Source of the DNA: Escherichia phage Ayreon
Sequence record: MF807953
Reading direction: 5' to 3' (one strand)
Length of the DNA stretch: 44,708 nt
Below are positions 25,141 to 44,640 of this stretch, one piece after another. Under the pieces are notes generated by a model. The model ran no database searches. It had not been told where the DNA came from and worked only from the letters and a program-made list of their open reading frames with translations. Position numbers and translations under genes: made by a program. How positions within the stretch are numbered: the stretch's first letter is position 1; every line of letters begins with the position of its first letter.

Positions 25141-25613
25141 TGTTTGTGTTGTACACCGCCCAATCAACAGTGTCAATAGAACAAAGATTGCTGCATGTAC
25201 AAATGTTCTTTGGCTACAAATACACCTACTGATCATGTTCTGCTATGCTCTGATACCTCCAAAATGTACAATCAGCGGCATGAATTTTTCTTTGTACATA
25301 TGATTGTACATAATCAAAGAGACAGCAATTATGACAAGCCTTTTGGCCGCAGAGGTAGCGAAAAGAAGAACCTTTGCCATTATTTCTCACCCCAATAATT
25401 AAGCCAAAATTAAAGCTCTTTTACTCTTTCAAAATCCTTTCAGTTAATTGAGGTTGAGCCATATAACTCATTTAAATACATTTAGTTATGTGGCTTCTTT
25501 AATTGAAAATTCTTTCATGTAACTTTAAATCGATCTGCTTGCTTTCATCAAAAATCTGTACATGTGCTTGTACATAATGTACAAAACAGCAGAGGTGTTT
25601 TTTTATTTGTACA
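25141..25613. promoter_or_regulatory. Array of nine TGTACA motifs upstream of int (candidate protein-binding / att arm region)
   Basis: TGTACA occurs at 25141, 25187, 25256, 25284, 25296, 25557, 25569, 25578 and 25608 within about 470 bp, including the repeated unit TTGTACATAAT, in AT-rich non-coding DNA ending at the int start. Confidence 0.5.
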
Positions 25614-31935: not shown

Positions 31936-32298
31936 TTAACGACCTGCTGCGCGGAGTTTTCCGTCAGGTTCACCGGCAAGAGTCAGTAATTGTCCCTGGT
32001 CTTCCTGCAGAATAGTCAGGCGACCACCGCGATTGACATACATCGGCGTTTCGGTGGTGTCTTCTTCGGAAATTTTCCCGCGGTTAGTCGGGCGAACATA
32101 TGAGAGTTTGTGTTTGATTTTTACACGGTTCTCATCAAACGGTTCGATTTCCAGGTTGAGCGAGACCTTACCTTTGGTTTTCGTGTTCATCACACCGGAA
32201 GCGACTTCACTGAGAACAGCGCCGATTTTGGTTTCAAATACGCCGCCGTCCAGCTCCCCGATAAATGCCTGCACATCAGTACTGCGTTCGCTAGCCAT
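31936..32298 (-). CDS. Hypothetical early protein (first gene of leftward operon)
   Basis: Start MASERS chosen because of a strong GAGGAG ribosome-binding site 6 nt upstream; the six-frame ORF extends further upstream without one. Confidence 0.55.
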   Translation of the reverse strand: MASERSTDVQAFIGELDGGVFETKIGAVLSEVASGVMNTKTKGKVSLNLEIEPFDENRVKIKHKLSYVRPTNRGKISEEDTTETPMYVNRGGRLTILQEDQGQLLTLAGEPDGKLRAAGR

Positions 32299-32964: not shown

Positions 32965-33639
32965 TTAGGCCTTTATTTTGTATCTTCTTGGTTTTCCCGA
33001 GAAAATCACTGTACCAATTATAGAGCAATTACCGTTAATCTTAATGTAAGGCTCAGGCCAGTTTGGGTTTAATGCTTTGAGATAACGCTGTGTTCCATCT
33101 TCTATCAATCGCTTGAAGGTGGTTTCGCCTGTATCGTGCATCAATGCAATAACGTCGTCACCGTGGCAGGCAGGGACTTCGGGATCAACAAAAATCATGT
33201 CTCCAGGGCGGTACTCATCAATCATTGAATCACCAATCACCCGCAAGATATAAGTCATTTCGCCACAGGGTACAGGGCAGGGGTAAGTTTCTGCTGTGCT
33301 CAAATCAACCTCAGAATAGCCAACTTCTTTCCATGCTCCGGCCTGTACCCATGATATGACAGGGACTAACGTTATTTGTTTGTTAGTGATTGAAACATCA
33401 GGTTTTTTTGTGATGTTCGTGGTCTGGTGTTCTTGATCAAGCCATCCGACAGGCAGGTCGAAACATTTTTCGATGTGCCGCGCCATGCTGTCACCGATAT
33501 TTTTAGTAGCACCATCTCCCATAAACCTGCTGGTCTGGGTTGGCTCGCGATCAATCATGGTGGCAAAGGAAGAATTCCCGCCAACACCATCTCTCAGTTT
33601 TCTGGCGTTAGACCGCCGGATGTCATGGATTGTTTTCAT
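32965..33639 (-). CDS. cI: CI-like repressor (HTH plus S24 LexA-type autopeptidase domain)
   Basis: 224 aa; N-terminal HTH region, C-terminal S24 features (GDSM serine motif and a downstream Lys in FKRL); divergent from the cro-like gene. Confidence 0.85.
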   Translation of the reverse strand: MKTIHDIRRSNARKLRDGVGGNSSFATMIDREPTQTSRFMGDGATKNIGDSMARHIEKCFDLPVGWLDQEHQTTNITKKPDVSITNKQITLVPVISWVQAGAWKEVGYSEVDLSTAETYPCPVPCGEMTYILRVIGDSMIDEYRPGDMIFVDPEVPACHGDDVIALMHDTGETTFKRLIEDGTQRYLKALNPNWPEPYIKINGNCSIIGTVIFSGKPRRYKIKA

Positions 33640-35587: not shown

Positions 35588-36402
35588 GTATGGAGCTGAT
35601 GGTTAAAGCGATGAAAATTCGAGTGGGTAATCCATTGCGAAAACTGGTTCTGATCAAGCTGGCTGATAATGCCAGCGATCAGGGTGAGTGCTGGCCCAGC
35701 TACCAGCATATTGCTGACCAGTGTGAGATTAGCAAACGTTCTGTGATGAATCATATTGCGGCCCTTTGTGAGTCCGGGCTGGTAAAAAAAGTCACCCGGA
35801 AAGGTGAAAAAGGTAACTCAAGTAATATCTATCTCCTTCATCTGGATGGTGCAGGAGATTCACTAGGGGGTAGTGCAAATAATTCACTATCTGGTGCAGC
35901 AAATTCACTAGGTAGTGCAGGAGTTGCACCAGGGGGTAGTGCAGGAGATTCACCCAGAACCAGTCACTCTTTTGAACCAGTCAAAGAATCAGTCAATGAA
36001 CCAATAGCTGTTGGTGCATCAGTTGATGAGTCCGTGCGAGTTCGTTCAAACCGACCGGAATACTCTCCGGAGTTTGAGCAGGCATGGCTGGCATATCCCA
36101 AACGTGCTGGTGGCAATTCAAAATCTGCAGCCTTCAAAGCCTGGAAAGCCCGTTTGAATGAGGGGGTAAACCCCGAAACCATGCTGGAAGGTGTGAAACG
36201 CTACGCGGGCTGGGTATCTGCGATGGGTAACAGCGGCACACAATTTGTGAAACAGGCTGTCACGTTCTTTGGTCCGGATCGTCATTTCGAAGAATCCTGG
36301 GAAGTTCCTGCGGTATCTGCAGCTAGACGTGAGGACCCGTACTTCAAAGCCAGTTACGACAACGTGGACTACAGCCAGATCCCGGCAGGATTCAGGGGGT
36401 GA
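35584..36402 (+). CDS. Putative replication initiation protein (N-terminal winged-helix/HTH domain)
   Basis: 272 aa; N-terminal region (LRKLVLIKLADNASDQGECWPSYQHIADQCEISKRSVMNHIAALCESGLVKK) typical of phage replication-initiator HTH domains; C-terminal AYPKRAGGNSKSAAFKAWKAR segment. Confidence 0.55.
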   Translation: MSMELMVKAMKIRVGNPLRKLVLIKLADNASDQGECWPSYQHIADQCEISKRSVMNHIAALCESGLVKKVTRKGEKGNSSNIYLLHLDGAGDSLGGSANNSLSGAANSLGSAGVAPGGSAGDSPRTSHSFEPVKESVNEPIAVGASVDESVRVRSNRPEYSPEFEQAWLAYPKRAGGNSKSAAFKAWKARLNEGVNPETMLEGVKRYAGWVSAMGNSGTQFVKQAVTFFGPDRHFEESWEVPAVSAARREDPYFKASYDNVDYSQIPAGFRG

Positions 36403-36893
36403 TCATGAGTCTTTTGAATGAAGTTCAGAAATTCATTGAAGCCCATCCGGGGTGTACTTCCGGAGACATTGCGGATGCTTTTGCAGGTTACTCACGGCAG
36501 CGCGTTCTGCAGTCAGCAAGCAAGTTACGTCAGAGTGGGCGTGTGGCTCACCGTTGTGAAGGAGATACACGCAGACATTTCCCACGCCTGACTGAGAGAG
36601 CGCAGGAGCCGGAACCACAACCAGTTCGTGAAACCAGACCTGTGCGCAATTTCTATGTCGGCACTAACGATCCCCGGGTGATTTTGTGCCTGACCCGCCA
36701 GGCGGAAGAACTGGAGTCCAGGGGCTTATACCGTCGTGCTGCAACGGTGTGGATGGCGGCATTCCGTGAAAGCTACTCCCAGCCAGAACGAAACAATTTT
36801 CTGGCGCGTCGTGAACGGTGTTTACGGAAAAGCAGTAAGCGGGCTGCATCAGGTGAAGAGTGGTATCTGTCAGGGAATTACGTGGGGGCTTAA
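36399..36893 (+). CDS. Hypothetical early protein (164 aa)
   Basis: ORF whose stop overlaps the next start (TAATG). Confidence 0.45.
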   Translation: MIMSLLNEVQKFIEAHPGCTSGDIADAFAGYSRQRVLQSASKLRQSGRVAHRCEGDTRRHFPRLTERAQEPEPQPVRETRPVRNFYVGTNDPRVILCLTRQAEELESRGLYRRAATVWMAAFRESYSQPERNNFLARRERCLRKSSKRAASGEEWYLSGNYVGA

Positions 36894-37219
36894 TGACGAC
36901 GTTAACTCAATGCCAGCAGCAGGTGCTGGATATGCTGATTTCTTACCAGAAAGAACGTGGCTTCCCGCCAACCAATCAGGAGGTGGCAACCATGCTGGGA
37001 TACCGTTCGGTGAATGCAGCGGTGGAGCATCTTCGCGCACTGGAGAAAAAAGGCGTCATCACGATAAAGCGTGGCGTGGCCCGGGGGATAACGCTTCATA
37101 CCGCGGTGAAGGACGACGACAGCGAGGCTGTCGGGATTATCCGCTCACTGCTTGCCGGTGAGGAAAACGCAAGGCTGCGTGCAACCCACTGGCTACATGA
37201 GAGAGGCCTGAAAGTATGA
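36893..37219 (+). CDS. LexA N-terminal DNA-binding-domain-like protein (no peptidase domain)
   Basis: 108 aa from MTTLTQ; alignment by eye to the LexA winged-helix region (LexA [68 protein letters not shown] versus here MTTLTQCQQQVLDMLISYQKERGFPPTNQEVATMLGYRSVNAAVEHLRALEKKGVITIKRGVARGITL); no S24 domain follows. Confidence 0.65.
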   Translation: MTTLTQCQQQVLDMLISYQKERGFPPTNQEVATMLGYRSVNAAVEHLRALEKKGVITIKRGVARGITLHTAVKDDDSEAVGIIRSLLAGEENARLRATHWLHERGLKV

Positions 37220-37605
37220 AACTGATCCTGCCTTTCCCGCCCAGCGTGAATACGTACTGGCGACACCCTAACAAAGGGGCGTTTGCTGGTAAAAGCCTGA
37301 TAAGCACGGCGGGGCGCAAATTCCAGAGCGCGGCGTGCGCAGCAATAGTTGAGCAGTTACGTCGTCTGCCGAAACCAACGTCGGCACCTGCTTCAGTGGA
37401 GATCGTGTTGTTTCCTCCGGATAACCGGATCCGCGATCTGGACAACTATAACAAGGCACTGTTTGACGCCCTGACCCACGCGGGTGTGTGGGAAGACGAC
37501 AGTCAGGTGAAAAGAATGCTGGTGGAGTGGGGACCGGTTATCCCGGAAGGGAAGGTCGAGATCACTATCAGTAAGTACGAGAAAACGGCGGGTGCAGCCG
37601 CCTGA
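37216..37605 (+). CDS. rusA: Holliday junction resolvase RusA
   Basis: 129 aa; segments LPFPPSVNTYWRH, DLDNYNKALFDALTHAGVWEDDSQV and VEITISKYE match RusA-family hallmarks. Confidence 0.85.
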   Translation: MKLILPFPPSVNTYWRHPNKGAFAGKSLISTAGRKFQSAACAAIVEQLRRLPKPTSAPASVEIVLFPPDNRIRDLDNYNKALFDALTHAGVWEDDSQVKRMLVEWGPVIPEGKVEITISKYEKTAGAAA

Positions 37606-38435: not shown

Positions 38436-39431
38436 GTGACCGTGAGAGCACTACTGACCCCTGAAATTGCCCCGCGTATGGGGATCGTATTGTTCAGGCC
38501 AGGTTCAGAGCTGATGCCCCTGTTTATGCAGGGGCGTGTCCTGCTGGAGCCTGAGCCGGAACGTTATTCATCTTTCGCCAGTGGTGCCGTTCCGGCGGCA
38601 TCACAACCGCTGGCGGATGATCCTGCCGTTCGGGCCGTGTTCCGCAATGAGGCAGTGATCCGTCGTGCTGGTGGCGTGGAATGTCTTGAAAGCTGGTTAC
38701 TTCGTGAAAAAGGCTGCCAGTGGCCTCATTCCGACTGGCACAGCGAGAACATGACCACAATGCGACACGCGCCGGGCGCAATCCGTCTGTGCTGGCACTG
38801 CGATAACCAGCTGCGCGATCAGTTCACGGAACGGCTGGAATCAATGGCAACGGATAACTGTGCCCGCTGGGTGTTGTCTGTTGTGCGTCGGGATCTCGGT
38901 TTTGATGACAGTCACGTTGTGACAATGCCGGAACTGTGCTGGTGGCTGATTCGTAATGACCTGGCGGATGCCTTACCGGAAAGTGCAGCCCGTAAGGCAC
39001 TGAGATTACCAAAGCCTGTTGTGCCGTCTGTCACCCGGGAAAGTGACCTTGTGCCTTCGGTTCCTGCCACCAGCATCATCCAGGATAAAGCGAAAAAGGT
39101 GCTGGCGCTGAAAGTGGATCCGGAGTCGCCGGAGTCTTTTATGTTACGCCCAAAACGTCGCCGCTGGGTTAATGAAAAGTACACGCGCTGGGTTAAGACA
39201 CAGCCGTGTGCATGTTGTGGAAAGCCCGCTGATGATCCCCACCACCTGATAGGTCACGGTCAGGGTGGAATGGGAACAAAAGCGCATGACCTCTTTGTGT
39301 TGCCTTTGTGCAGAAAGCATCACGACGAGCTGCATGCGGATACCGTGGCATTTGAAGAGAAGTATGGCTCTCAGCTGGAGCTGATATTTCGTTTTATCGA
39401 TCGTGCGCTGGCAATTGGCGTATTGGCGTAA
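38436..39431 (+). CDS. DUF968-like protein with C-terminal Cys/His zinc-binding HNH-like motif
   Basis: 331 aa; C-terminal CACCGKPADDPHHLIGHGQGGMGTKAHDLFVLPLCRKHHDELH motif; position in the nin-like region before Q. Confidence 0.6.
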   Translation: MTVRALLTPEIAPRMGIVLFRPGSELMPLFMQGRVLLEPEPERYSSFASGAVPAASQPLADDPAVRAVFRNEAVIRRAGGVECLESWLLREKGCQWPHSDWHSENMTTMRHAPGAIRLCWHCDNQLRDQFTERLESMATDNCARWVLSVVRRDLGFDDSHVVTMPELCWWLIRNDLADALPESAARKALRLPKPVVPSVTRESDLVPSVPATSIIQDKAKKVLALKVDPESPESFMLRPKRRRWVNEKYTRWVKTQPCACCGKPADDPHHLIGHGQGGMGTKAHDLFVLPLCRKHHDELHADTVAFEEKYGSQLELIFRFIDRALAIGVLA

Positions 39432-39444
39432 GTGGAGAACGAGC

Positions 39445-40197
39445 ATGAACCTTGAAGCCTTACCAAAATATTACTCCCCAAAATCTCCAAAATTGAGCGA
39501 TGACGCACCGGCGACAGGCTCAGGTGGTTTAACGATTACGGATGTGATGGCTGCGCAGGGGATGGTGCAGTCGAAAGCACCGCTTGGGTTTGCCTTATTC
39601 CTGGCAAAAGTTGGTGTTCAGGATCCTCAATTTGCGATTGAAGGTCTGCTCAATTACGCGATGGCACTGGATAACCCGACATTGAACAAATTGAGTGAAG
39701 AAACCCGGTTACAGATCATCCCTTACCTTGTGAATTTTGCCTTTGCTGATTATTCCAGGTCTGCGGCAAGTAAGGCTCGCTGTGAGCATTGTGCTGGTAC
39801 TGGATTTCATAATGTATTGCGCGAAGTGGTGAAACACTCCAGAAGCGGGGAATCTGTTATCAAGGAAGAGTGGGTGAAGGAACTATGTCAGCATTGTCAT
39901 GGTAAGGGAGAAGTCAGCACAGCGTGCAGAGGGTGTAAGGGTAAAGGTATTGTCCTGGATGAAAAAAGGACCCGGCTTCATGGCACGCCTGTTTATAAGA
40001 TTTGTGGGCGTTGCAATGGAAACCGGTTTAGCCGTTTACCAACCACACTGGCGCGGCATCATGTCCAGAAGCTGGTACCAGACCTGACGGATTATCAGTG
40101 GTACAAAGGATATGCAGATGTCATTGATAAACTGGTTACAAAGTGCTGGCAGGAAGAAGCATATGCAGAGATACAATTGAGAAATGTGACAAGATAA
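39445..40197 (+). CDS. Q: Late gene antiterminator Q
   Basis: 250 aa from MNLEAL with a GGAG ribosome-binding site; Cys-rich zinc-binding region CEHCAGTG...CQHCHGKGEVSTACRGCKGKG...CGRCNG; followed by a candidate pR' and tR' terminator. Confidence 0.75.
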   Translation: MNLEALPKYYSPKSPKLSDDAPATGSGGLTITDVMAAQGMVQSKAPLGFALFLAKVGVQDPQFAIEGLLNYAMALDNPTLNKLSEETRLQIIPYLVNFAFADYSRSAASKARCEHCAGTGFHNVLREVVKHSRSGESVIKEEWVKELCQHCHGKGEVSTACRGCKGKGIVLDEKRTRLHGTPVYKICGRCNGNRFSRLPTTLARHHVQKLVPDLTDYQWYKGYADVIDKLVTKCWQEEAYAEIQLRNVTR

Positions 40198-40228
40198 ATG
40201 GTTTTCGCCGAAGATGACGACATGATGC

Positions 40229-40257
40229 TTGCATTTTTCAAAAAATATGGATAAGAT
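40229..40257 (+). promoter_or_regulatory. Candidate late promoter pR' (Q-utilisation region)
   Basis: TTGCAT - 17 bp - TAAGAT between the Q stop and a strong terminator. Confidence 0.4.
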
Positions 40258-40304
40258 TTTCCCAACGATGGGCTTTGTATGTCTACCGTTGATAAGATTT
40301 AAGA

Positions 40305-40329
40305 ACCCGCCACTGAGCGGGTTTTTTTG
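40305..40329 (+). terminator. tR'-like rho-independent terminator
   Basis: Hairpin acccgc-cactga-gcgggt followed by a T7 run. Confidence 0.8.
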
Positions 40330-40486
40330 TGCCAGATGTCTCATGAAACTATGAAATGGATTGGTGCGTTAAACATTTTTTCTTATTATCTTTTAGATTT
40401 TGGAGAGATGGTTAACGTCTGTATTCCAGAAACTCGATGATTATTTAATAAATTAGTTTCAATGATGCTTCTAGGTTATGACTGTA

Positions 40487-40903
40487 ATGAAAAAGGTATT
40501 AATAGCAGCGATAGGTTTTTGTTTAGTTGGTTGTGCAGGTATGAAATTACCTGAGTATTCGCAAGTTAAAGCAAGTCCGTATTATACAGATTGCCGTGCG
40601 TTTGCCATGGATGTTTATAAAAATGATGGATACAGCAAAATTGCGAAAACTACTATCCTTAGCATGGATGATGTGAAGGCTAGATATATTGTGACAGGGT
40701 GTGTAGTTGCTATGGGGAAAAACACTGTAGAGGAAATCAAAGCTGATCTCTCTGCTAAAGGGAGTTCTTTTGGGCTTATCAGTGGAGCTTGTTCTAGTGC
40801 GGCATGTCGGGTTGATGTAGAGCAGCAAATGAACGCTTATGTACTTGGTAGTTATTATGCTGCAAATAAAAAATTCCCGGATAAAATGAAAGCAGAGTTT
40901 TAA
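40487..40903 (+). CDS. Lipoprotein (moron cargo)
   Basis: 139 aa from MKKVLIAAIGFCLVGCAG: signal peptide with lipobox LVGC; AT-rich codon usage unlike the flanking phage genes; bracketed by two copies of the same terminator hairpin. Confidence 0.7.
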   Translation: MKKVLIAAIGFCLVGCAGMKLPEYSQVKASPYYTDCRAFAMDVYKNDGYSKIAKTTILSMDDVKARYIVTGCVVAMGKNTVEEIKADLSAKGSSFGLISGACSSAACRVDVEQQMNAYVLGSYYAANKKFPDKMKAEF

Positions 40904-40980
40904 GTAAACCTTGTTTTCGATTATATGTCGAAGATAAATGTTAGTAACGGCATAATAAGTAAATATATAGCTGTGATAGC

Positions 40981-41005
40981 AACCCGCCACTGAGCGGGTT
41001 TTTTG
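40981..41005 (+). terminator. Second copy of tR'-like terminator
   Basis: About 27 bp near-identical to 40305-40329 (aacccgccactgagcgggttttttgt). Confidence 0.8.
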
Positions 41006-41102
41006 TACCTGTAAACTTGGTGCAGTACAGTAAACACGCTGGTGGTCGTGAATACTGACTTTTTATCTTGCTGGCTTTTTAGACAAGAGTTATTGGTATG
41101 TC

Positions 41103-41330
41103 ATGTTAACCAGAAGGGAAAAAGACATGCTAAAACAGCAAGATATGACAGAAACCGCCGCCGCAGTCCTTCATTTCTTACCTGCTGACAAGTGGGTAAC
41201 GCCACGCATGATGACGAGAACTACCGGAGTAAGCGAAGCCCGGTGCCAGTTAATACTGACTCAGTTAGTTCTGGCGGGTCTGGCGAAGGATAACGGCGGG
41301 TACGGGAATAAATTCAGACGCTGCCAGTAA
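41103..41330 (+). CDS. Hypothetical small protein (75 aa)
   Basis: ORF with a GAAGGG/AAAGA-type ribosome-binding region upstream, positioned ahead of the methyltransferase. Confidence 0.4.
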   Translation: MLTRREKDMLKQQDMTETAAAVLHFLPADKWVTPRMMTRTTGVSEARCQLILTQLVLAGLAKDNGGYGNKFRRCQ

Positions 41331-41480
41331 TGGCGGTTTCCTGCTGTGAAAATGGGCGGCTGGTGGGTGTTGGTAGCACCTGCCAGCCATTCGCTCATGC
41401 TTACTGGTCACAAGCGAACCATGGCCCACTGCTTTAGCGCAAAAGCAGAGTGAGCCTACCAGAGTTACGCTTACTGATCC

Positions 41481-42533
41481 ATGAAAAATACTGTAAAAAT
41501 AAACAGTGTTGATTTAATCAACGCTGATTGCCTGCATTTTATTCAGTCCCTGCCTGATGATTCCATTGACCTGATTGTTACCGATCCGCCGTACTTCAAG
41601 GTGAAACCCAACGGCTGGGACAATCAGTGGAAAGGGGACGAAGATTACCTTAAGTGGCTGGACCACTGTCTGGCCCAGTTCTGGCGGGTGTTAAAACCTG
41701 CCGGAAGCCTTTACCTGTTCTGTGGGCATCGCCTGGCATCTGATATTGAGATCATGATGCGTGAACGTTTCAACGTGCTTAACCATATCATCTGGGCGAA
41801 GCCGTCCGGACGTTGGAATGGGTGTAATAAAGAAAGTCTGCGCGCATATTTTCCTGCCACAGAGCGCGTTCTGTTTGCTGAACATTACCAGGGGCCATAT
41901 CGCGGCAAAAGTGACGGCTATGCAGCAAAAGAAAGGGAACTCAAACAGCACATAATGGCACCGCTGATATCGTATTTCAGGGATGCTCGTGCCGAACTGG
42001 GTATAACGGCAAAACAAATTGCCGAAGCCACAGGTAAGAAAAATATGGTTTCCCACTGGTTTGGTGCCAGTCAGTGGCAGTTGCCGAATGAGGCTGACTA
42101 TCGGAAGTTACAGGCACTGTTTTCCCGTATAGCGGCAGAGAAGTTTCAGGAACAACAACTGGAACAACCACACCACCAGCTGGTGGCATCTTATGATTCA
42201 CTGAATCGTAAATATTCTGAATTGCTGGATGAGTTTAAATCTCTCCGGCGCTATTTCTCCGTATCAGTCTCCGTGCCTTATACCGATGTCTGGATGCATA
42301 AACCCGTTCAGTTCTACCCGGGGAAACATCCGTGTGAGAAACCGGCGGATATGCTCAGGCAAATAATCAATGCCAGTAGTCGACCTGGTGATCTGGTTGC
42401 TGATTTTTTTATGGGATCCGGTTCCACAATAAAAGCAGCAATGGCGCTGGGGCGTCGGGCCTTAGGTGTTGAGCTTGAGTCAGAGCGGTTTAACCAGACA
42501 GTGAAAGAGATAAACGAGCTGGTGGGGAAATAA
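41481..42533 (+). CDS. DNA methyltransferase (N6-adenine/N4-cytosine amino-MTase, orphan)
   Basis: 350 aa; catalytic motif IVTDPPYF near the N-terminus and AdoMet-binding motif DFFMGSGST near the C-terminus; no restriction endonuclease partner nearby. Confidence 0.85.
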
Positions 42534-42600
42534 TCTGGTGGCCACGTCAGGTGGCCTTTTTATTTCCATTACACAGCACCCGCATCTGCGAGGTGGGGTT

Positions 42601-42816
42601 ATGAAATCCATGGATAAGTTAACAACGGGTGTCGCCTATGGCACCTCAGCAGGTAGTGCCGGGTACTGGTTTTTACAGTTGCTCGATAAAGTCACGCCCT
42701 CACAGTGGGCGGCAATAGGTGTGCTGGGTAGTCTGGTATTTGGCCTGCTGACGTACCTGACAAACCTTTATTTCAAGATTAAAGAAGATAAGCGCAAGGC
42801 TGCGAGAGGTGAATAA
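42601..42816 (+). CDS. S: Holin (phage 21 S21-type pinholin)
   Basis: 71 aa from MKSMDK (dual-start motif); sequence [62 protein letters not shown] matches my recollection of the phage 21 holin. Confidence 0.85.
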
Positions 42817-43313
42817 TGCCTCCATCATTACGAAAAGCAGTTGCTGCTGCTATTGGTGGCGGAGCAATTGCTATAGCATCAGTGTTAATCACTGGCCCAA
42901 GTGGTGACGATGGCCTGGAAGGTGTCAGCTACATACCATACAAAGATATCGTTGGCGTATGGACTGTATGTCACGGACACACCGGAAAAGACATCATGCT
43001 CGGTAAAACGTATACCGAAGCAGAATGCAAAGCCCTCCTGAATAAAGACCTTGCCACGGTTGCCAGACAAATTAACCCGTACATCAAAGTCGATATACCG
43101 GAAACAACGCGCGGCGCTCTTTACTCGTTCGTCTACAACGTGGGTGCTGGCAATTTCAGAACATCGACGCTTCTTCGCAAAATAAACCAGGGCGATATCA
43201 AAGGCGCATGTGACCAGCTACGTCGCTGGATATACGCTGGCGGTAAGCAATGGAAAGGCCTGATGACTCGTCGTGAGATTGAGCGTGAAGTCTGTTTGTG
43301 GGGGCAACAATGA
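42816..43313 (+). CDS. R: SAR endolysin (lysozyme with N-terminal signal-anchor-release domain)
   Basis: 165 aa; Gly/Ala-rich N-terminal hydrophobic SAR segment [20 protein letters not shown] followed by a lysozyme-like domain. Confidence 0.85.
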
Positions 43314-43777: not shown

Positions 43778-44406
43778 TAGCGATAATTTTACTCATCATC
43801 CTTCACATCTGGCTCTGTAGACAGGATGGTGATCACTTCTGGAGTGAATCCAGATTAAACATCTCATTGCTGATGCTTGATATTGAGCATCTTGCGCGCG
43901 GTAAGGGGCTGCGTTGAGATAAGGGCCAGTCATTACAAATACCAGGATTTAGCCTCGCATTCGCGGGGCTTTTTATTGCCATTACAAAAGCCACTCCCTA
44001 CAGAGTGGCTTTGATAATGGTTTATACCCTACACGGGATAGCTTAACTGATATCCCTTTTAACGGATAAAGGTATTCAAGCCTGACACATCATGCGCTGT
44101 ATCGTCGCCGTATTCCCGTATTAACAGAGACCGTAGCCCGACGGGGAACTCCTTCTGCGCGAGTGTGCGGGAATAATCAAAAACGATGCACACCGGGTTT
44201 TTACCGCGTTTATGGTTCGCGGGTTTGTCCCTCATGCTCGCCAGTCCTGTGCGGGGGTGGAAGAAACAGGACACTTACACAGATTCTTGTGGGCACGATG
44301 CTATGCCTTTCTGGATTATCCCGATGCCATTCATGCAAGGCGTTGTATCAGACGTTCGTCAGAGCTGTCAGGCTGACGGGTCCTCCCGGTGGGGTGGCCT
44401 GCCACG

Positions 44407-44494
44407 GGGTGAAGGAACTATGTCAGCATTGTCATGGTAAGGGAGAAGTCAGCACAGCGTGCAGAGGGTGTAAGGGTAAAGGTATTGTGCTGGA
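44407..44494 (+). repeat. Displaced copy of an internal Q-gene segment
   Basis: 88 bp identical except for one mismatch to 39872-39959 (inside Q, encoding ELCQHCHGKGEVSTACRGCKGKGIVL). Confidence 0.9.
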
Positions 44495-44558
44495 GACATT
44501 ACCGGATATTCTGGAACGTGACTGCGGCCTGCAGCCTGCTGCTGTGAGCCGTGTTCAG
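44487..44558 (+). repeat. Displaced copy of an internal small-terminase gene segment
   Basis: 72 bp identical to 359-430 (inside the Nu1-like gene, encoding LETLPDILERDCGLQPAAVSRVQ); overlaps the Q copy by an 8-bp microhomology gtgctgga. Confidence 0.9.
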
Positions 44559-44604
44559 CCGTGGAAAAAGGCTAGTTTTTGAAATTTCATTCGTCATCAC
44601 CACT

Positions 44605-44640
44605 ACTGTAATGTATTGATATTACAGTGATTTTATTTTT
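44605..44640 (+). terminator. Terminal inverted repeat followed by T-rich tract
   Basis: actgtaat-gtattgat-attacagt followed by gattttattttt, in an AT-rich non-coding tail 70-100 bp before the window end. Confidence 0.3.

What the first reader, a model, noticed from the sequence alone, without database searches (positions are those of the whole stretch)
36893..37219. Phage-encoded LexA DNA-binding domain without the autopeptidase domain
The 108-aa product aligns by eye along its whole length with the N-terminal winged-helix domain of LexA, including the recognition-helix region (PPT..EIA..LG.RS.NAA.EHL.AL..KGVI), but stops where the LexA hinge and S24 protease domain would begin. Such a protein could bind SOS boxes or phage operators without being cleavable by activated RecA, so it could uncouple or rewire the SOS response (non-inducible repression, or competition with host LexA). 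It sits in the rightward early operon just upstream of rusA and is translationally coupled (TAATG) to the preceding gene.
Basis: partly seen in the sequence, partly recalled or inferred. Interest (0 to 1): 0.6.

Follow-up and report, generated by a model that had tools for sequence, protein, structure and literature searches.

The report
Phage LexA-head protein without protease
This lambda-like phage carries a small, well-conserved gene whose product is a copy of the DNA-binding head of the bacterial SOS repressor LexA, joined to a short helical tail instead of the self-cleaving domain; it is very common in E. coli prophages and already labelled in databases, but I found no published test of what it does.

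Summary
ORF 36893..37219 (+) encodes a 108-aa protein. Residues 1-69 are a full-length LexA winged-helix domain (Pfam PF01726 E=2.9e-19; E. coli LexA NTD E=7e-16; model rmsd 1.0 Å to DNA-bound LexA). There is no S24 peptidase domain.

The protein is not just a truncation. Residues 76-103 form a two-helix tail that is conserved in relatives down to about 40% identity. The gene is under strong purifying selection (dN/dS about 0.03-0.2). It lies in the pR delayed-early operon and overlaps both neighbouring genes (TAATG with the PerC-like gene, ATGA with rusA).

It occurs in 2233 of 5426 complete E. coli genomes and in SfV, SfII, cdtI, mEp460 and O157 Stx2c phages. PGAP names it "LexA family transcriptional regulator". 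I found no experimental paper.

Four of LexA's five base-contact residues are kept. Glu44 is replaced in all 119 family members examined, so binding to canonical SOS boxes is plausible but unproven.

The window has one strong SOS box (41489-41508, at the start of the late methylase gene). That box also occurs in phages lacking this gene.

Best reading, at moderate confidence: a RecA-insensitive LexA mimic. The main rival is a regulator with its own operator, like GIL01 gp6.

The parts
36893..37219 (+). CDS of the LexA-NTD-like protein ('lexL' in this report), 108 aa plus stop
   Evidence: ORF list and sequence. Pfam PF01726 E=2.9e-19. PHROG 362 E=1.1e-59, full length. dN/dS about 0.03-0.2 over 73 DNA alleles.
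36893..37099 (+). Residues 1-69: LexA-type winged helix-turn-helix (H6-22, H28-35, H40-52, strands 56-58 and 66-68)
   Evidence: AF2 model. Foldseek match to 3jso_B, rmsd 1.0 Å over 67 aa. Alignment to LexA without gaps.
37007..37048 (+). Residues 39-52: recognition helix region S39-V40-N41-A42-A43-V44-E45-H46-L47... (LexA has S-P-N-A-A-E-E-H-L)
   Evidence: Alignments. Contact residues listed in PMC3091678. Family statistics for position 44.
37118..37201 (+). Residues 76-103: conserved two-helix C-terminal tail (EAVGIIRSLLAGEENARLRATHWLHE); inferred to be the dimerisation element
   Evidence: Conserved in relatives of 38-52% identity. AF2 helices 76-87 and 93-103 with block pLDDT about 86. 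Tail dN/dS about 0.1-0.2. No structural match in PDB. The dimerisation role is an inference.
36399..36893 (+). Upstream gene, PerC-family protein; its TAA stop shares one base with the lexL ATG (TAATG at 36891-36895)
   Evidence: Sequence. Pfam PerC E=1.7e-8.
37216..37605 (+). Downstream gene rusA (Holliday-junction resolvase); its ATG overlaps the lexL TGA (ATGA at 37216-37219)
   Evidence: Sequence. Pfam RusA E=1.2e-14. lexL lies directly upstream of this rusA allele in 73 of 80 IMG/VR loci, and upstream of or near rusA in relatives of 42-51% identity.
32965..33639 (-). The phage's own CI-type repressor with an S24 peptidase domain (context: the prophage has a conventional LexA/CI-type, presumably RecA-cleavable, repressor of its own)
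   Evidence: Pfam Peptidase_S24 E=1.5e-26, residues 92-211.
41489..41508 (.). The only strong LexA (SOS) box in the window, TACTGTAAAAATAAACAGTG, in codons 3-9 of the late-operon DNA methyltransferase gene (41481..42533); a candidate target, not shown to belong to lexL
   Evidence: PWM score 22.5 bits; the maximum of 200 shuffles was 20.9. Kept at the same place in Kosakonia and other phages, with CTGT and CAG retained while the spacer and the amino acids change. It also occurs in about 17 informative loci that lack lexL.

Best explanation
The gene encodes a small sequence-specific DNA-binding regulator that descends from the N-terminal domain of a gammaproteobacterial LexA. It is transcribed as part of the pR delayed-early operon (cro, cII, ash-like, replication gene, perC-like, lexL, rusA, kilA-N, DUF968, Q), so it is made after prophage induction or infection and not in the lysogen. 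It lacks the S24 domain, so it cannot undergo RecA*-stimulated self-cleavage. Its conserved two-helix tail most likely replaces the LexA C-terminal domain as the dimerisation element. The proposed mechanism is that the dimer occupies LexA-type operators (CTGT-like half-sites) at a time when host LexA has been destroyed. This would re-impose repression on SOS-box promoters of the host, of co-resident prophages, colicins and antirepressors, and on SOS boxes carried by the phage itself, independently of the DNA-damage signal. Shown: homology, fold, lack of protease, operon position, purifying selection and wide distribution. Inferred: dimerisation through the tail, timing of expression, and the identity of the DNA targets.
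For: The whole wHTH is LexA-like: 51% identity to E. coli LexA over the domain, no indels, rmsd 1.0 Å to the DNA-bound form. Four of five base-contact residues are retained (S39, N41, A42, E45). In 110 close relatives these are nearly invariant: S39 108/110, N41 107/110, E45 106/110. There is no S24 domain, and the protein scores below the lexA equivalog cut-off. The tail is conserved to about 40% identity and predicted as two helices. Purifying selection acts on both parts: NTD dN is about 0 at dS 0.04-0.13, and tail dN/dS is about 0.1-0.2. Published work says the LexA NTD alone still binds SOS boxes and represses, and that cells must degrade it for SOS activation (PMC10584840). The gene overlaps both neighbours, and the scans found no promoter-like site just upstream of it and no terminator-like site on the + strand between about 35,000 and the gene. 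Phages of this group do carry strong SOS boxes.
Against: Glu44, one of the five base-contacting residues, is Val here and is never Glu in the family (0 of 119). That points to a changed or relaxed specificity. The half-site spacing set by a different dimer interface is unknown. SOS-like sites are not enriched in the window. The one strong box occurs equally in phages without the gene. The only characterised phage-encoded LexA-NTD protein I found (gp6) does not bind LexA boxes. No DNA-binding, oligomerisation or expression data exist for this protein. A homodimer model could not be run.
Confidence: 0.4

Rival explanations
1. It is a phage-specific transcription factor that kept the LexA fold but evolved its own operator, as GIL01 gp6 did. 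It would activate or repress a phage promoter and leave the host SOS regulon alone.
For: GIL01 gp6 is 44% identical to its host LexA NTD, yet binds a distinct palindrome (GaCACAn nTGTGaC) and activates the late promoter (PMC6182141). Family-wide loss of Glu44, with variation at positions 40 and 42, suggests altered specificity. In a distant member (P0086, 65% identity) Glu45 is also lost.
Against: I found no candidate operator that goes with the gene. A palindrome survey of the window gave nothing shared. The CTGT-N14-ACAG palindrome at 44605-44628 occurs in only 1 of 288 fetched loci. The gene travels as a cassette among phages with different immunity, replication and late regions, which is awkward for a regulator tied to one phage operator. 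Helix III differs from LexA at only a few positions.
Confidence: 0.33
2. It binds SOS boxes but acts as a competitor or activator rather than a repressor, for example by keeping host LexA off phage-borne boxes during infection of undamaged cells. The methylase box sits between pR' and the lysis genes, where bound LexA could impede late transcription.
For: A strong, positionally conserved SOS box lies inside the late operon. gp6 shows that a LexA-NTD protein can be an activator.
Against: The box-bearing methylase is common in phages without the gene (about 17 informative loci). Many lexL phages have no box within 10 kb. Nothing indicates how a small wHTH dimer would fail to repress where LexA represses.
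Confidence: 0.1
3. It is not a transcription factor but a DNA-binding accessory of the adjacent RusA resolvase or of recombination-dependent replication.
For: The gene lies immediately upstream of rusA, usually with overlapping stop and start, in the window, in 73 of 80 loci with this rusA allele, and in relatives of only 42-51% identity whose upstream neighbours differ.
Against: The same rusA allele (99% identity) occurs without it in seven of the 80 loci; at least the four examined are PerC-Dam-RusA. Other rusA alleles also lack it. One locus has lexL without rusA (L228). RusA acts independently as a homodimer (review PMC10956419). I know of no precedent for a LexA wHTH as a resolvase partner.
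Confidence: 0.07
4. It is a decaying fragment of a captured lexA gene with no function.
For: It looks like a truncated lexA, and some annotations call it 'SOS-response repressor and protease LexA'.
Against: dN/dS is about 0.03-0.2 across 73 DNA alleles and 47 protein variants. A family of constant length (about 104-116 aa) extends to 38% identity with a conserved tail. It is present in 41% of complete E. coli genomes, mostly intact.
Confidence: 0.02

Closest known systems
E. coli LexA N-terminal domain (residues 1-84; PDB 1lea, 3jso) and non-cleavable LexA variants such as the PDB entries 1jhf (G85D) and 1jhh (S119A)
   Same: The winged-helix fold and nearly the same recognition helix (SVNAAVEHL against SPNAAEEHL). 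Four of five base-contact residues match. Like the cleavage product LexA1-84, it has no protease or dimerisation domain. Like LexA(Ind-) mutants (as I recall them), it cannot respond to RecA*.
   Different: Glu44 is replaced by Val. It carries a family-specific two-helix tail of about 33 residues in place of the S24 domain. It is encoded by a phage early operon and not by the autoregulated host lexA locus. As I recall from Neher et al. 2003 (paper not held), cleavage of LexA exposes a C-terminal ...VAA signal recognised by ClpX; the window protein has no such free end.
GIL01/Bam35 gp6 (tectivirus 'truncated LexA homologue', PMC6182141)
   Same: A phage-encoded protein consisting essentially of a LexA DNA-binding domain, expressed from an early promoter after LexA inactivation, in a phage whose biology is tied to the SOS response.
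   Different: There is no detectable sequence similarity to the window protein (BLASTP E>100), so each was captured independently from its own host-type LexA. gp6 is 66 aa with no tail. gp6 is shown to bind its own palindrome and activate the late promoter. The function of the window protein is untested, and late genes here depend on a Q antiterminator.
CI-repressor N-terminal fragments that keep repressing after cleavage (S. aureus phages 11 and 80alpha; PMC10584840)
   Same: They show that a DNA-binding domain without its cleavable C-terminal domain can still repress.
   Different: Those are cleavage products of the phage's own repressor and hinder induction. Here the domain is a separately encoded gene, related to the host's LexA, and made during lytic growth.
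Other SOS modulators on mobile elements (GIL01 gp7; prophage DinI-like proteins such as mEp460 gp21; and, from memory, plasmid PsiB)
   Same: Mobile-element genes that would reshape the host SOS response.
   Different: These act on LexA or RecA proteins. This protein would act on the DNA operators.

Membership tests
LexA SOS repressor (TIGR00498 equivalog) | N-terminal LexA-type winged-helix DNA-binding domain (PF01726) | tested here: met
   PF01726 E=2.9e-19, model positions 1-65 of 65; 1lea E=6.9e-16; fold rmsd 1.0 Å to 3jso_B.
LexA SOS repressor (TIGR00498 equivalog) | C-terminal S24 peptidase / dimerisation domain with Ser-Lys dyad | tested here: not met
   No PF00717 hit. The protein ends at residue 108. 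TIGR00498 scores 70.8 bits against a cut-off of 110.95, matching only model positions 1-91 of 203.
LexA SOS repressor (TIGR00498 equivalog) | Conserved Ala-Gly self-cleavage site in the hinge | tested here: not met
   A88-G89 aligns with LexA A84-G85. It is not conserved even among close relatives (LLANEE, LLVGEE) nor in distant ones (VERES, LTRKE, IDDQP). No protease domain is present to use it.
LexA SOS repressor (TIGR00498 equivalog) | Helix III base-contact residues Ser39, Asn41, Ala42, Glu44, Glu45 | tested here: inconclusive
   Four of five are kept. Glu44 is Val, and no family member has Glu at position 44 (0 of 119), against 74 of 99 other top hits.
LexA SOS repressor (TIGR00498 equivalog) | Binds CTGT-N8-ACAG operators and represses SOS genes | not testable with these tools
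   Only indirect data. There is one strong SOS box in the window, and it is not specifically linked to the gene.
PHROG 362 / PGAP 'LexA family transcriptional regulator' (short lambdoid-phage family) | Full-length match of about 106 aa, including the C-terminal tail | tested here: met
   phrog_362 E=1.1e-59, residues 1-108 on profile 1-106 of 106. 96-100% identity to proteins so named in E. coli genomes and phages.
GIL01 gp6-type truncated LexA homologue | Phage-encoded protein made essentially of a LexA DNA-binding domain | tested here: met
   Architecture as above. This is a functional and architectural resemblance only.
GIL01 gp6-type truncated LexA homologue | Sequence homology to gp6 | tested here: not met
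   BLASTP of the window protein against GIL01 ORF6 gives no alignment with E<=100.
GIL01 gp6-type truncated LexA homologue | Own palindromic operator at a late promoter; transcription activation | tested here: inconclusive
   No conserved candidate operator found. Activity is not testable here.

The most novel reading that the evidence does not exclude
A RecA-proof LexA mimic, carried by prophages in about 40% of complete E. coli genomes and by the O157 Stx2c phages in the collection, re-represses SOS-box promoters once the prophage is induced. It would curb the host SOS response (mutagenesis, filamentation, RuvAB, colicins) and the LexA-controlled antirepressors of rival prophages. It could also contribute to the characteristically low expression of Stx2c phages. 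The family-wide Glu44 change and the new dimerisation tail would give it a shifted operator preference, and so a sub-regulon distinct from LexA's.
Probability: 0.25. Interest if true: 0.75.

Novelty: new variant of a known kind. Interest (0 to 1): 0.5.

Why it matters
If the protein binds SOS operators, then a large fraction of E. coli strains carry a damage-insensitive LexA substitute. These include Shigella-converting phages (SfV, SfII, SfIV), the cdtI phage and O157 Stx2c phages. The substitute would switch on exactly when LexA is destroyed.

That would change how we model several things in lysogens: SOS-dependent mutagenesis, antibiotic tolerance, toxin release, and competition between co-resident prophages. 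It also offers a concrete candidate among the early-region genes that differ between low-expressing Stx2c phages and high-expressing Stx2a phages (PMC4645166). No Stx2a- or Stx1a-named phage record in the collection carries the gene, although the two records named Stx2a_WGPS2 and Stx2a_1447 are listed as Stx2c in PMC7366253.

If instead it has its own operator, it is a second, independent case of a phage capturing the host LexA head and retargeting it. The first case is tectiviral gp6.

Either way the experiments are simple: EMSA, reporter assays, gene deletion.

Tried and rejected
1. Plain SOS-box consensus scan. There was no enrichment: 22 sites with at most one mismatch against 15.6 expected, and 8 of 100 shuffles reached 22. 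A PWM built from E. coli boxes that I recalled from memory found a single strong site.

2. The idea that the methylase SOS box is the gene's dedicated target. Rejected as a specific link. The box occurs in 35 loci with the gene and about 17 informative loci without it. Many lexL loci have no box.

3. Search for a private operator. Perfect palindromes in the window gave no motif shared by lexL phages. The CTGT-N14-ACAG palindrome at 44605 is in 1 of 288 loci and absent from mEp460.

4. The idea that the 'AGE' at residues 88-90 is a retained cleavage site, cleavable in trans. Rejected, because it is not conserved.

5. Obligate partnership with RusA. Weakened by the PerC-Dam-RusA variants.

6. 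Homology to gp6. None found.

7. Defence-system models. Only a weak CARF3 hit, E=3.6e-4.

8. Scan of genome contigs with a family alignment. It was swamped by genuine lexA genes. Only one family member was recovered (Kosakonia, L008), so I have no taxonomic census.

9. Homodimer model using a linked tandem sequence.

10. Literature searches for a direct study of this gene. None found. The phage 1720a-02 'bully phage' preprint attributes its effect to Cro and does not mention this gene. The Zhang 2010 and Neher 2003 papers are not held.

Full report
**What is there**

The window is a complete lambdoid phage of the mEp460/cdtI/SfV type. Its left 23 kb is 97% identical to mEp460, and the 35.5-38.5 kb stretch is 98% identical.

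The ORF at 36893..37219 on the + strand encodes 108 residues, MTTLTQCQQQVLDML...HERGLKV. Its ATG shares one base with the TAA of the preceding PerC-family ORF (TAATG). Its TGA overlaps the ATG of rusA (ATGA).

The genes from cro to Q all lie on the + strand with short or overlapping junctions:
- a Cro/YdaS-like gene
- CII (CP76)
- an Ash-family gene
- an HTH_36/DnaD_N replication gene
- PerC
- this gene
- RusA
- KilA-N
- DUF968
- Q

A simple scan finds no promoter-like site just upstream of the gene, and no terminator-like site on the + strand between about 35,000 and the gene. The phage also has its own CI repressor with an S24 peptidase domain (32965..33639, minus strand).

**Is it LexA-like?**

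Yes, beyond doubt.
- Pfam LexA_DNA_bind covers the whole model (E=2.9e-19).
- The best solved structures are E. coli LexA and its isolated DNA-binding domain (E about 1e-15).
- BLASTP against E. coli LexA gives E=8e-22, with no gap through residue 69.
- An AlphaFold2 model (mean pLDDT 83) has the expected three helices and two-stranded wing. It superposes on LexA bound to operator DNA (3jso_B) at 1.0 Å over 67 residues.
- No S24 peptidase domain is found. The score against NCBI's lexA equivalog model (70.8 bits) is below its cut-off of 110.95.

The protein is a relative of LexA but not a LexA.

The protein is not a bare truncation. After a low-confidence linker (residues 70-75) come two predicted helices, 76-87 and 93-103.

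A search of 1.84 billion representative proteins found 4580 hits, most of them true LexAs. It also found a set of short proteins (about 104-135 aa) that align over the full length, tail included, at only 38-52% identity: P0124, P0126, P0129, P0130, P0138, P0162, P0168, P0219 and P0242. The tail motif E-a-x-x-I/L-R/Q-x-L-L...A-R-x-R-A-x-x-W/Y-L-x-x-R-G persists through this range.

I extracted 110 copies from the fetched loci. They comprise 73 DNA alleles and 47 protein variants.
- Against the window allele, close alleles have dS of 0.05-0.19 with dN of 0-0.02.
- A more distant allele (L208) has dN 0.079 and dS 0.82.
- The wHTH part often has dN=0.
- The tail has dN/dS of about 0.1-0.2.

Both parts are under purifying selection, so this is a working gene. 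The tail matches nothing in the PDB. LexA dimerises through the domain that is absent here, so the simplest inference is that the tail supplies dimerisation. That remains an inference.

**Distribution and prior knowledge**

The 327-bp gene is found at 95% identity or more in 2233 of 5426 complete E. coli genomes, up to four copies per genome. PGAP names it 'LexA family transcriptional regulator'.

Sixty phage GenBank records carry it. They include SfV (orf42, 'unknown'), SfII, SfIV, cdtI, mEp460 (gp46), 1720a-02, fifteen 'Stx2c-converting' phages, and the phages of O157 strains WGPS2 and 1447. The last two are named Stx2a in the records but are listed as Stx2c in PMC7366253.

The annotations vary: 'LexA-like protein', 'LexA DNA binding domain protein', 'transcriptional repressor', and the erroneous 'SOS-response repressor and protease LexA' and 'RecA-mediated autopeptidases'. 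PHROG 362 ('transcriptional repressor') matches it end to end.

The existence of the gene is thus already recorded. In three literature searches I found no paper that tests its function. The preprint on phage 1720a-02, which carries the gene, attributes that phage's interference with a co-resident prophage to Cro and does not mention this gene.

**Context in relatives**

Members of only 42-51% identity sit in the same place in other lambdoid prophages. Each is directly upstream of rusA, or separated from it by one small gene, and is followed by DUF968 and Q. The upstream neighbour varies: a replication gene, Dam, or a small ORF.

Among 80 IMG/VR loci with this rusA allele, 73 have the gene immediately upstream. 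In the seven others lexL is absent. The four I examined in detail are PerC-Dam-RusA with the gene cleanly missing. mEp460 has PerC-Dam-lexL-RusA, and the window has PerC-lexL-RusA.

So the gene is an optional cassette that nearly always lands before rusA, while rusA does not need it. This makes an obligate RusA-partner role unlikely.

**What DNA does it bind?**

This is the open point.

A paper on LexA regulons lists the DNA-contacting residues of E. coli LexA as Ser39, Asn41, Ala42, Glu44 and Glu45, all in helix III (PMC3091678). Numbering is identical in the window protein, which has S39, N41, A42, V44 and E45.

In 110 close relatives these positions are almost invariant: V44 in 107 and E45 in 106. 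In nine distant full-length members, position 44 is F, A, T, L or Y. It is never Glu in any of the 119 family members. Among the other 99 top hits, which are mostly true LexAs and LexA fragments, 74 have Glu44.

The family therefore keeps most of the LexA reading head but has systematically lost one base contact. The half-site spacing it prefers depends on an unknown dimer geometry.

**SOS boxes in the phage**

The plain consensus with one mismatch allowed is not enriched. I built a weight matrix from E. coli SOS boxes that I recalled from the literature, so the matrix rests on my own knowledge.

It finds exactly one strong site: TACTGTAAAAATAAACAGTG at 41489-41508. The score is 22.5 bits, within the range of genuine boxes and above the maximum of 200 shuffles. 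The site lies in codons 3-9 of the DNA methyltransferase gene, between Q and the lysis genes.

The site is real in the evolutionary sense.
- In a Kosakonia prophage it reads TACTGTAAATTTAAACAGTA.
- In methylases of 80-85% identity it reads TACTGTAAAAATATCCAGTT.
- CTGT and CAG are kept while the spacer and the encoded residues change.

The box is nevertheless not tied to this gene. Of the loci that could be judged, 35 have both the box and the gene, and about 17 have the box without the gene. Many lexL loci have no box within 10 kb. The box is most simply a host-LexA site.

A second recurrent perfect SOS box lies inside the cI gene of mEp460-type immunity regions. It is absent from this window.

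I found no other palindrome that travels with the gene.

**Mechanism**

Two published facts frame the options.

1. The LexA N-terminal fragment left after self-cleavage still binds SOS boxes and represses. Cells remove it with ClpXP to achieve SOS activation (PMC10584840). This supports the view that a stable, RecA-insensitive LexA head made from the phage early operon could hold SOS promoters down while host LexA is gone. That is my preferred explanation, at about 0.4.

2. The only characterised phage-encoded truncated LexA I found is gp6 of tectivirus GIL01. It is 44% identical to its host's LexA head, binds a different palindrome, and activates the late promoter (PMC6182141). gp6 shows no sequence similarity to the window protein, so the two are independent captures. 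The precedent, together with the Glu44 change, supports the rival 'own operator' model at about 0.33.

Smaller probabilities go to three other readings: a competitor or activator at SOS boxes, a RusA or recombination accessory, and a dead fragment. The last is excluded by the selection analysis.

One further link is speculative and untested. As I recall from Chan et al. 1997, RuvA inhibits RusA. The ruvAB operon is in the SOS regulon, so repression of ruvAB by a LexA mimic would favour the neighbouring RusA.

**Comparison and novelty**

The protein works like, and derives from, the LexA DNA-binding domain. It fails the membership test for LexA itself: no S24 domain, no conserved cleavage site, and a score below the equivalog cut-off. 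Architecturally it resembles gp6, but it is not homologous to gp6 beyond the shared LexA ancestry.

It is best described as a distinct, widespread enterobacterial-phage variant of the 'captured LexA head' theme. It is distinguished by a conserved helical tail and by loss of Glu44. Databases already label it. I found no published test of its function.

**Why it could matter**

The gene is in about 41% of complete E. coli genomes and in medically relevant converting phages. It is present in the O157 Stx2c phages, which are described as homogeneous and generally low-expressing (PMC4645166). No phage record named Stx2a- or Stx1a-converting appears among the tblastn hits. This is only a correlation among many differences, but it is easy to test.

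**Verdict**

Interest is moderate (0.5): the finding is ordinary in that the gene is already annotated, but it is unstudied, very common, and has a plausible and testable role in rewiring the SOS response.

Noticed in passing
window 41481-41522 (start of methyltransferase ORF 41481..42533): A high-scoring LexA box (41489-41508) is embedded in codons 3-9 of a late-operon DNA adenine methyltransferase. It is immediately followed by a second palindrome, GTTGATTTAATCAAC (41508-41522). In a Kosakonia prophage (L008) that palindrome reads ATTGATTTAATCAAT, so both arms changed together. The box is kept in methylases down to about 62% identity, but those loci were fetched with a pattern that contains the box. 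No convincing promoter lies just upstream. A LexA site between pR' and the lysis genes could couple methylase or late expression to SOS.
   Followed up: partly
L088 (mEp460) 31970-31989; also about 35 of the 80 loci L089-L168: A near-perfect SOS box (TACTGTATGTAAAAACAGTA on the minus strand, about 25 bits) lies inside the coding sequence of the CI-type repressor. It falls in the linker between the HTH and the S24 domain (codons about 54-61, 'SNTVCKNSI'). It is absent from this window, which has a different immunity region. Its purpose is unknown.
   Followed up: partly
window 40304-40323 and 40981-41000: The identical terminator-like hairpin AACCCGCCACTGAGCGGGTT plus a T-run occurs twice, flanking a lipoprotein-like moron ORF (40478..40903, MKKVLIAAIGFCLVGC...). 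This looks like a moron inserted with duplication of the late-leader terminator.
   Followed up: no
window 44390-44628: Near the right end is a remnant copy of the zinc-finger segment of the Q antiterminator (KELCQHCHGKGEVSTACRGCKGKGIVL, within ORF 44163..44582). It is followed by an 8-bp-arm palindrome, ACTGTAATGTATTGATATTACAGT (CTGT-N14-ACAG). That palindrome was found in only one other fetched locus (L243) and not in mEp460.
   Followed up: partly
proteins P0132, P0133, P0149, P0153, P0156: These proteins of 141-352 aa carry two tandem LexA_DNA_bind domains and no S24 domain (Pfam E of 1e-37 to 1e-49, two stretches each). This is another way to build a two-headed LexA-type binder without the dimerisation domain. 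Their context and hosts were not examined.
   Followed up: partly
window 36399-37605 compared with L088 35287-37137 and L112 8857-10390: Three cassette arrangements exist at this spot with near-identical flanks: PerC-lexL-RusA (window), PerC-Dam-lexL-RusA (mEp460, SfV) and PerC-Dam-RusA. Each junction has overlapping stop and start codons, which illustrates gene-boundary mosaicism.
   Followed up: yes
L007 4560-4579: In a distant relative's prophage, a 20.5-bit SOS box lies between a divergently oriented toxin/immunity-like moron (RNAse_A_bac and CdiI_2 Pfam hits) and the small ORF that precedes the LexA-like gene. This suggests an SOS-controlled bacteriocin-like module next to the gene.
   Followed up: no
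window 41340-41480: The roughly 140-nt stretch upstream of the methylase start is well conserved between the E. coli and Kosakonia phages. It contains hairpins (GGCTGGTGGGTG...CACCTGCCAGCC and GCTTTAGCGCAAAAGC) with one apparently compensatory change. No Rfam family matched at E<=0.1 in 39000-43000, apart from a chance-level Trp_leader hit at 40263.
   Followed up: partly
window 25557-25585: Three copies of TGTACA lie within 29 bp (TGTACATGTGCTTGTACATAATGTACA), including a perfect 8-1-8 palindrome, in the int/xis-side region. This may be a recombination or regulatory site.
   Followed up: no
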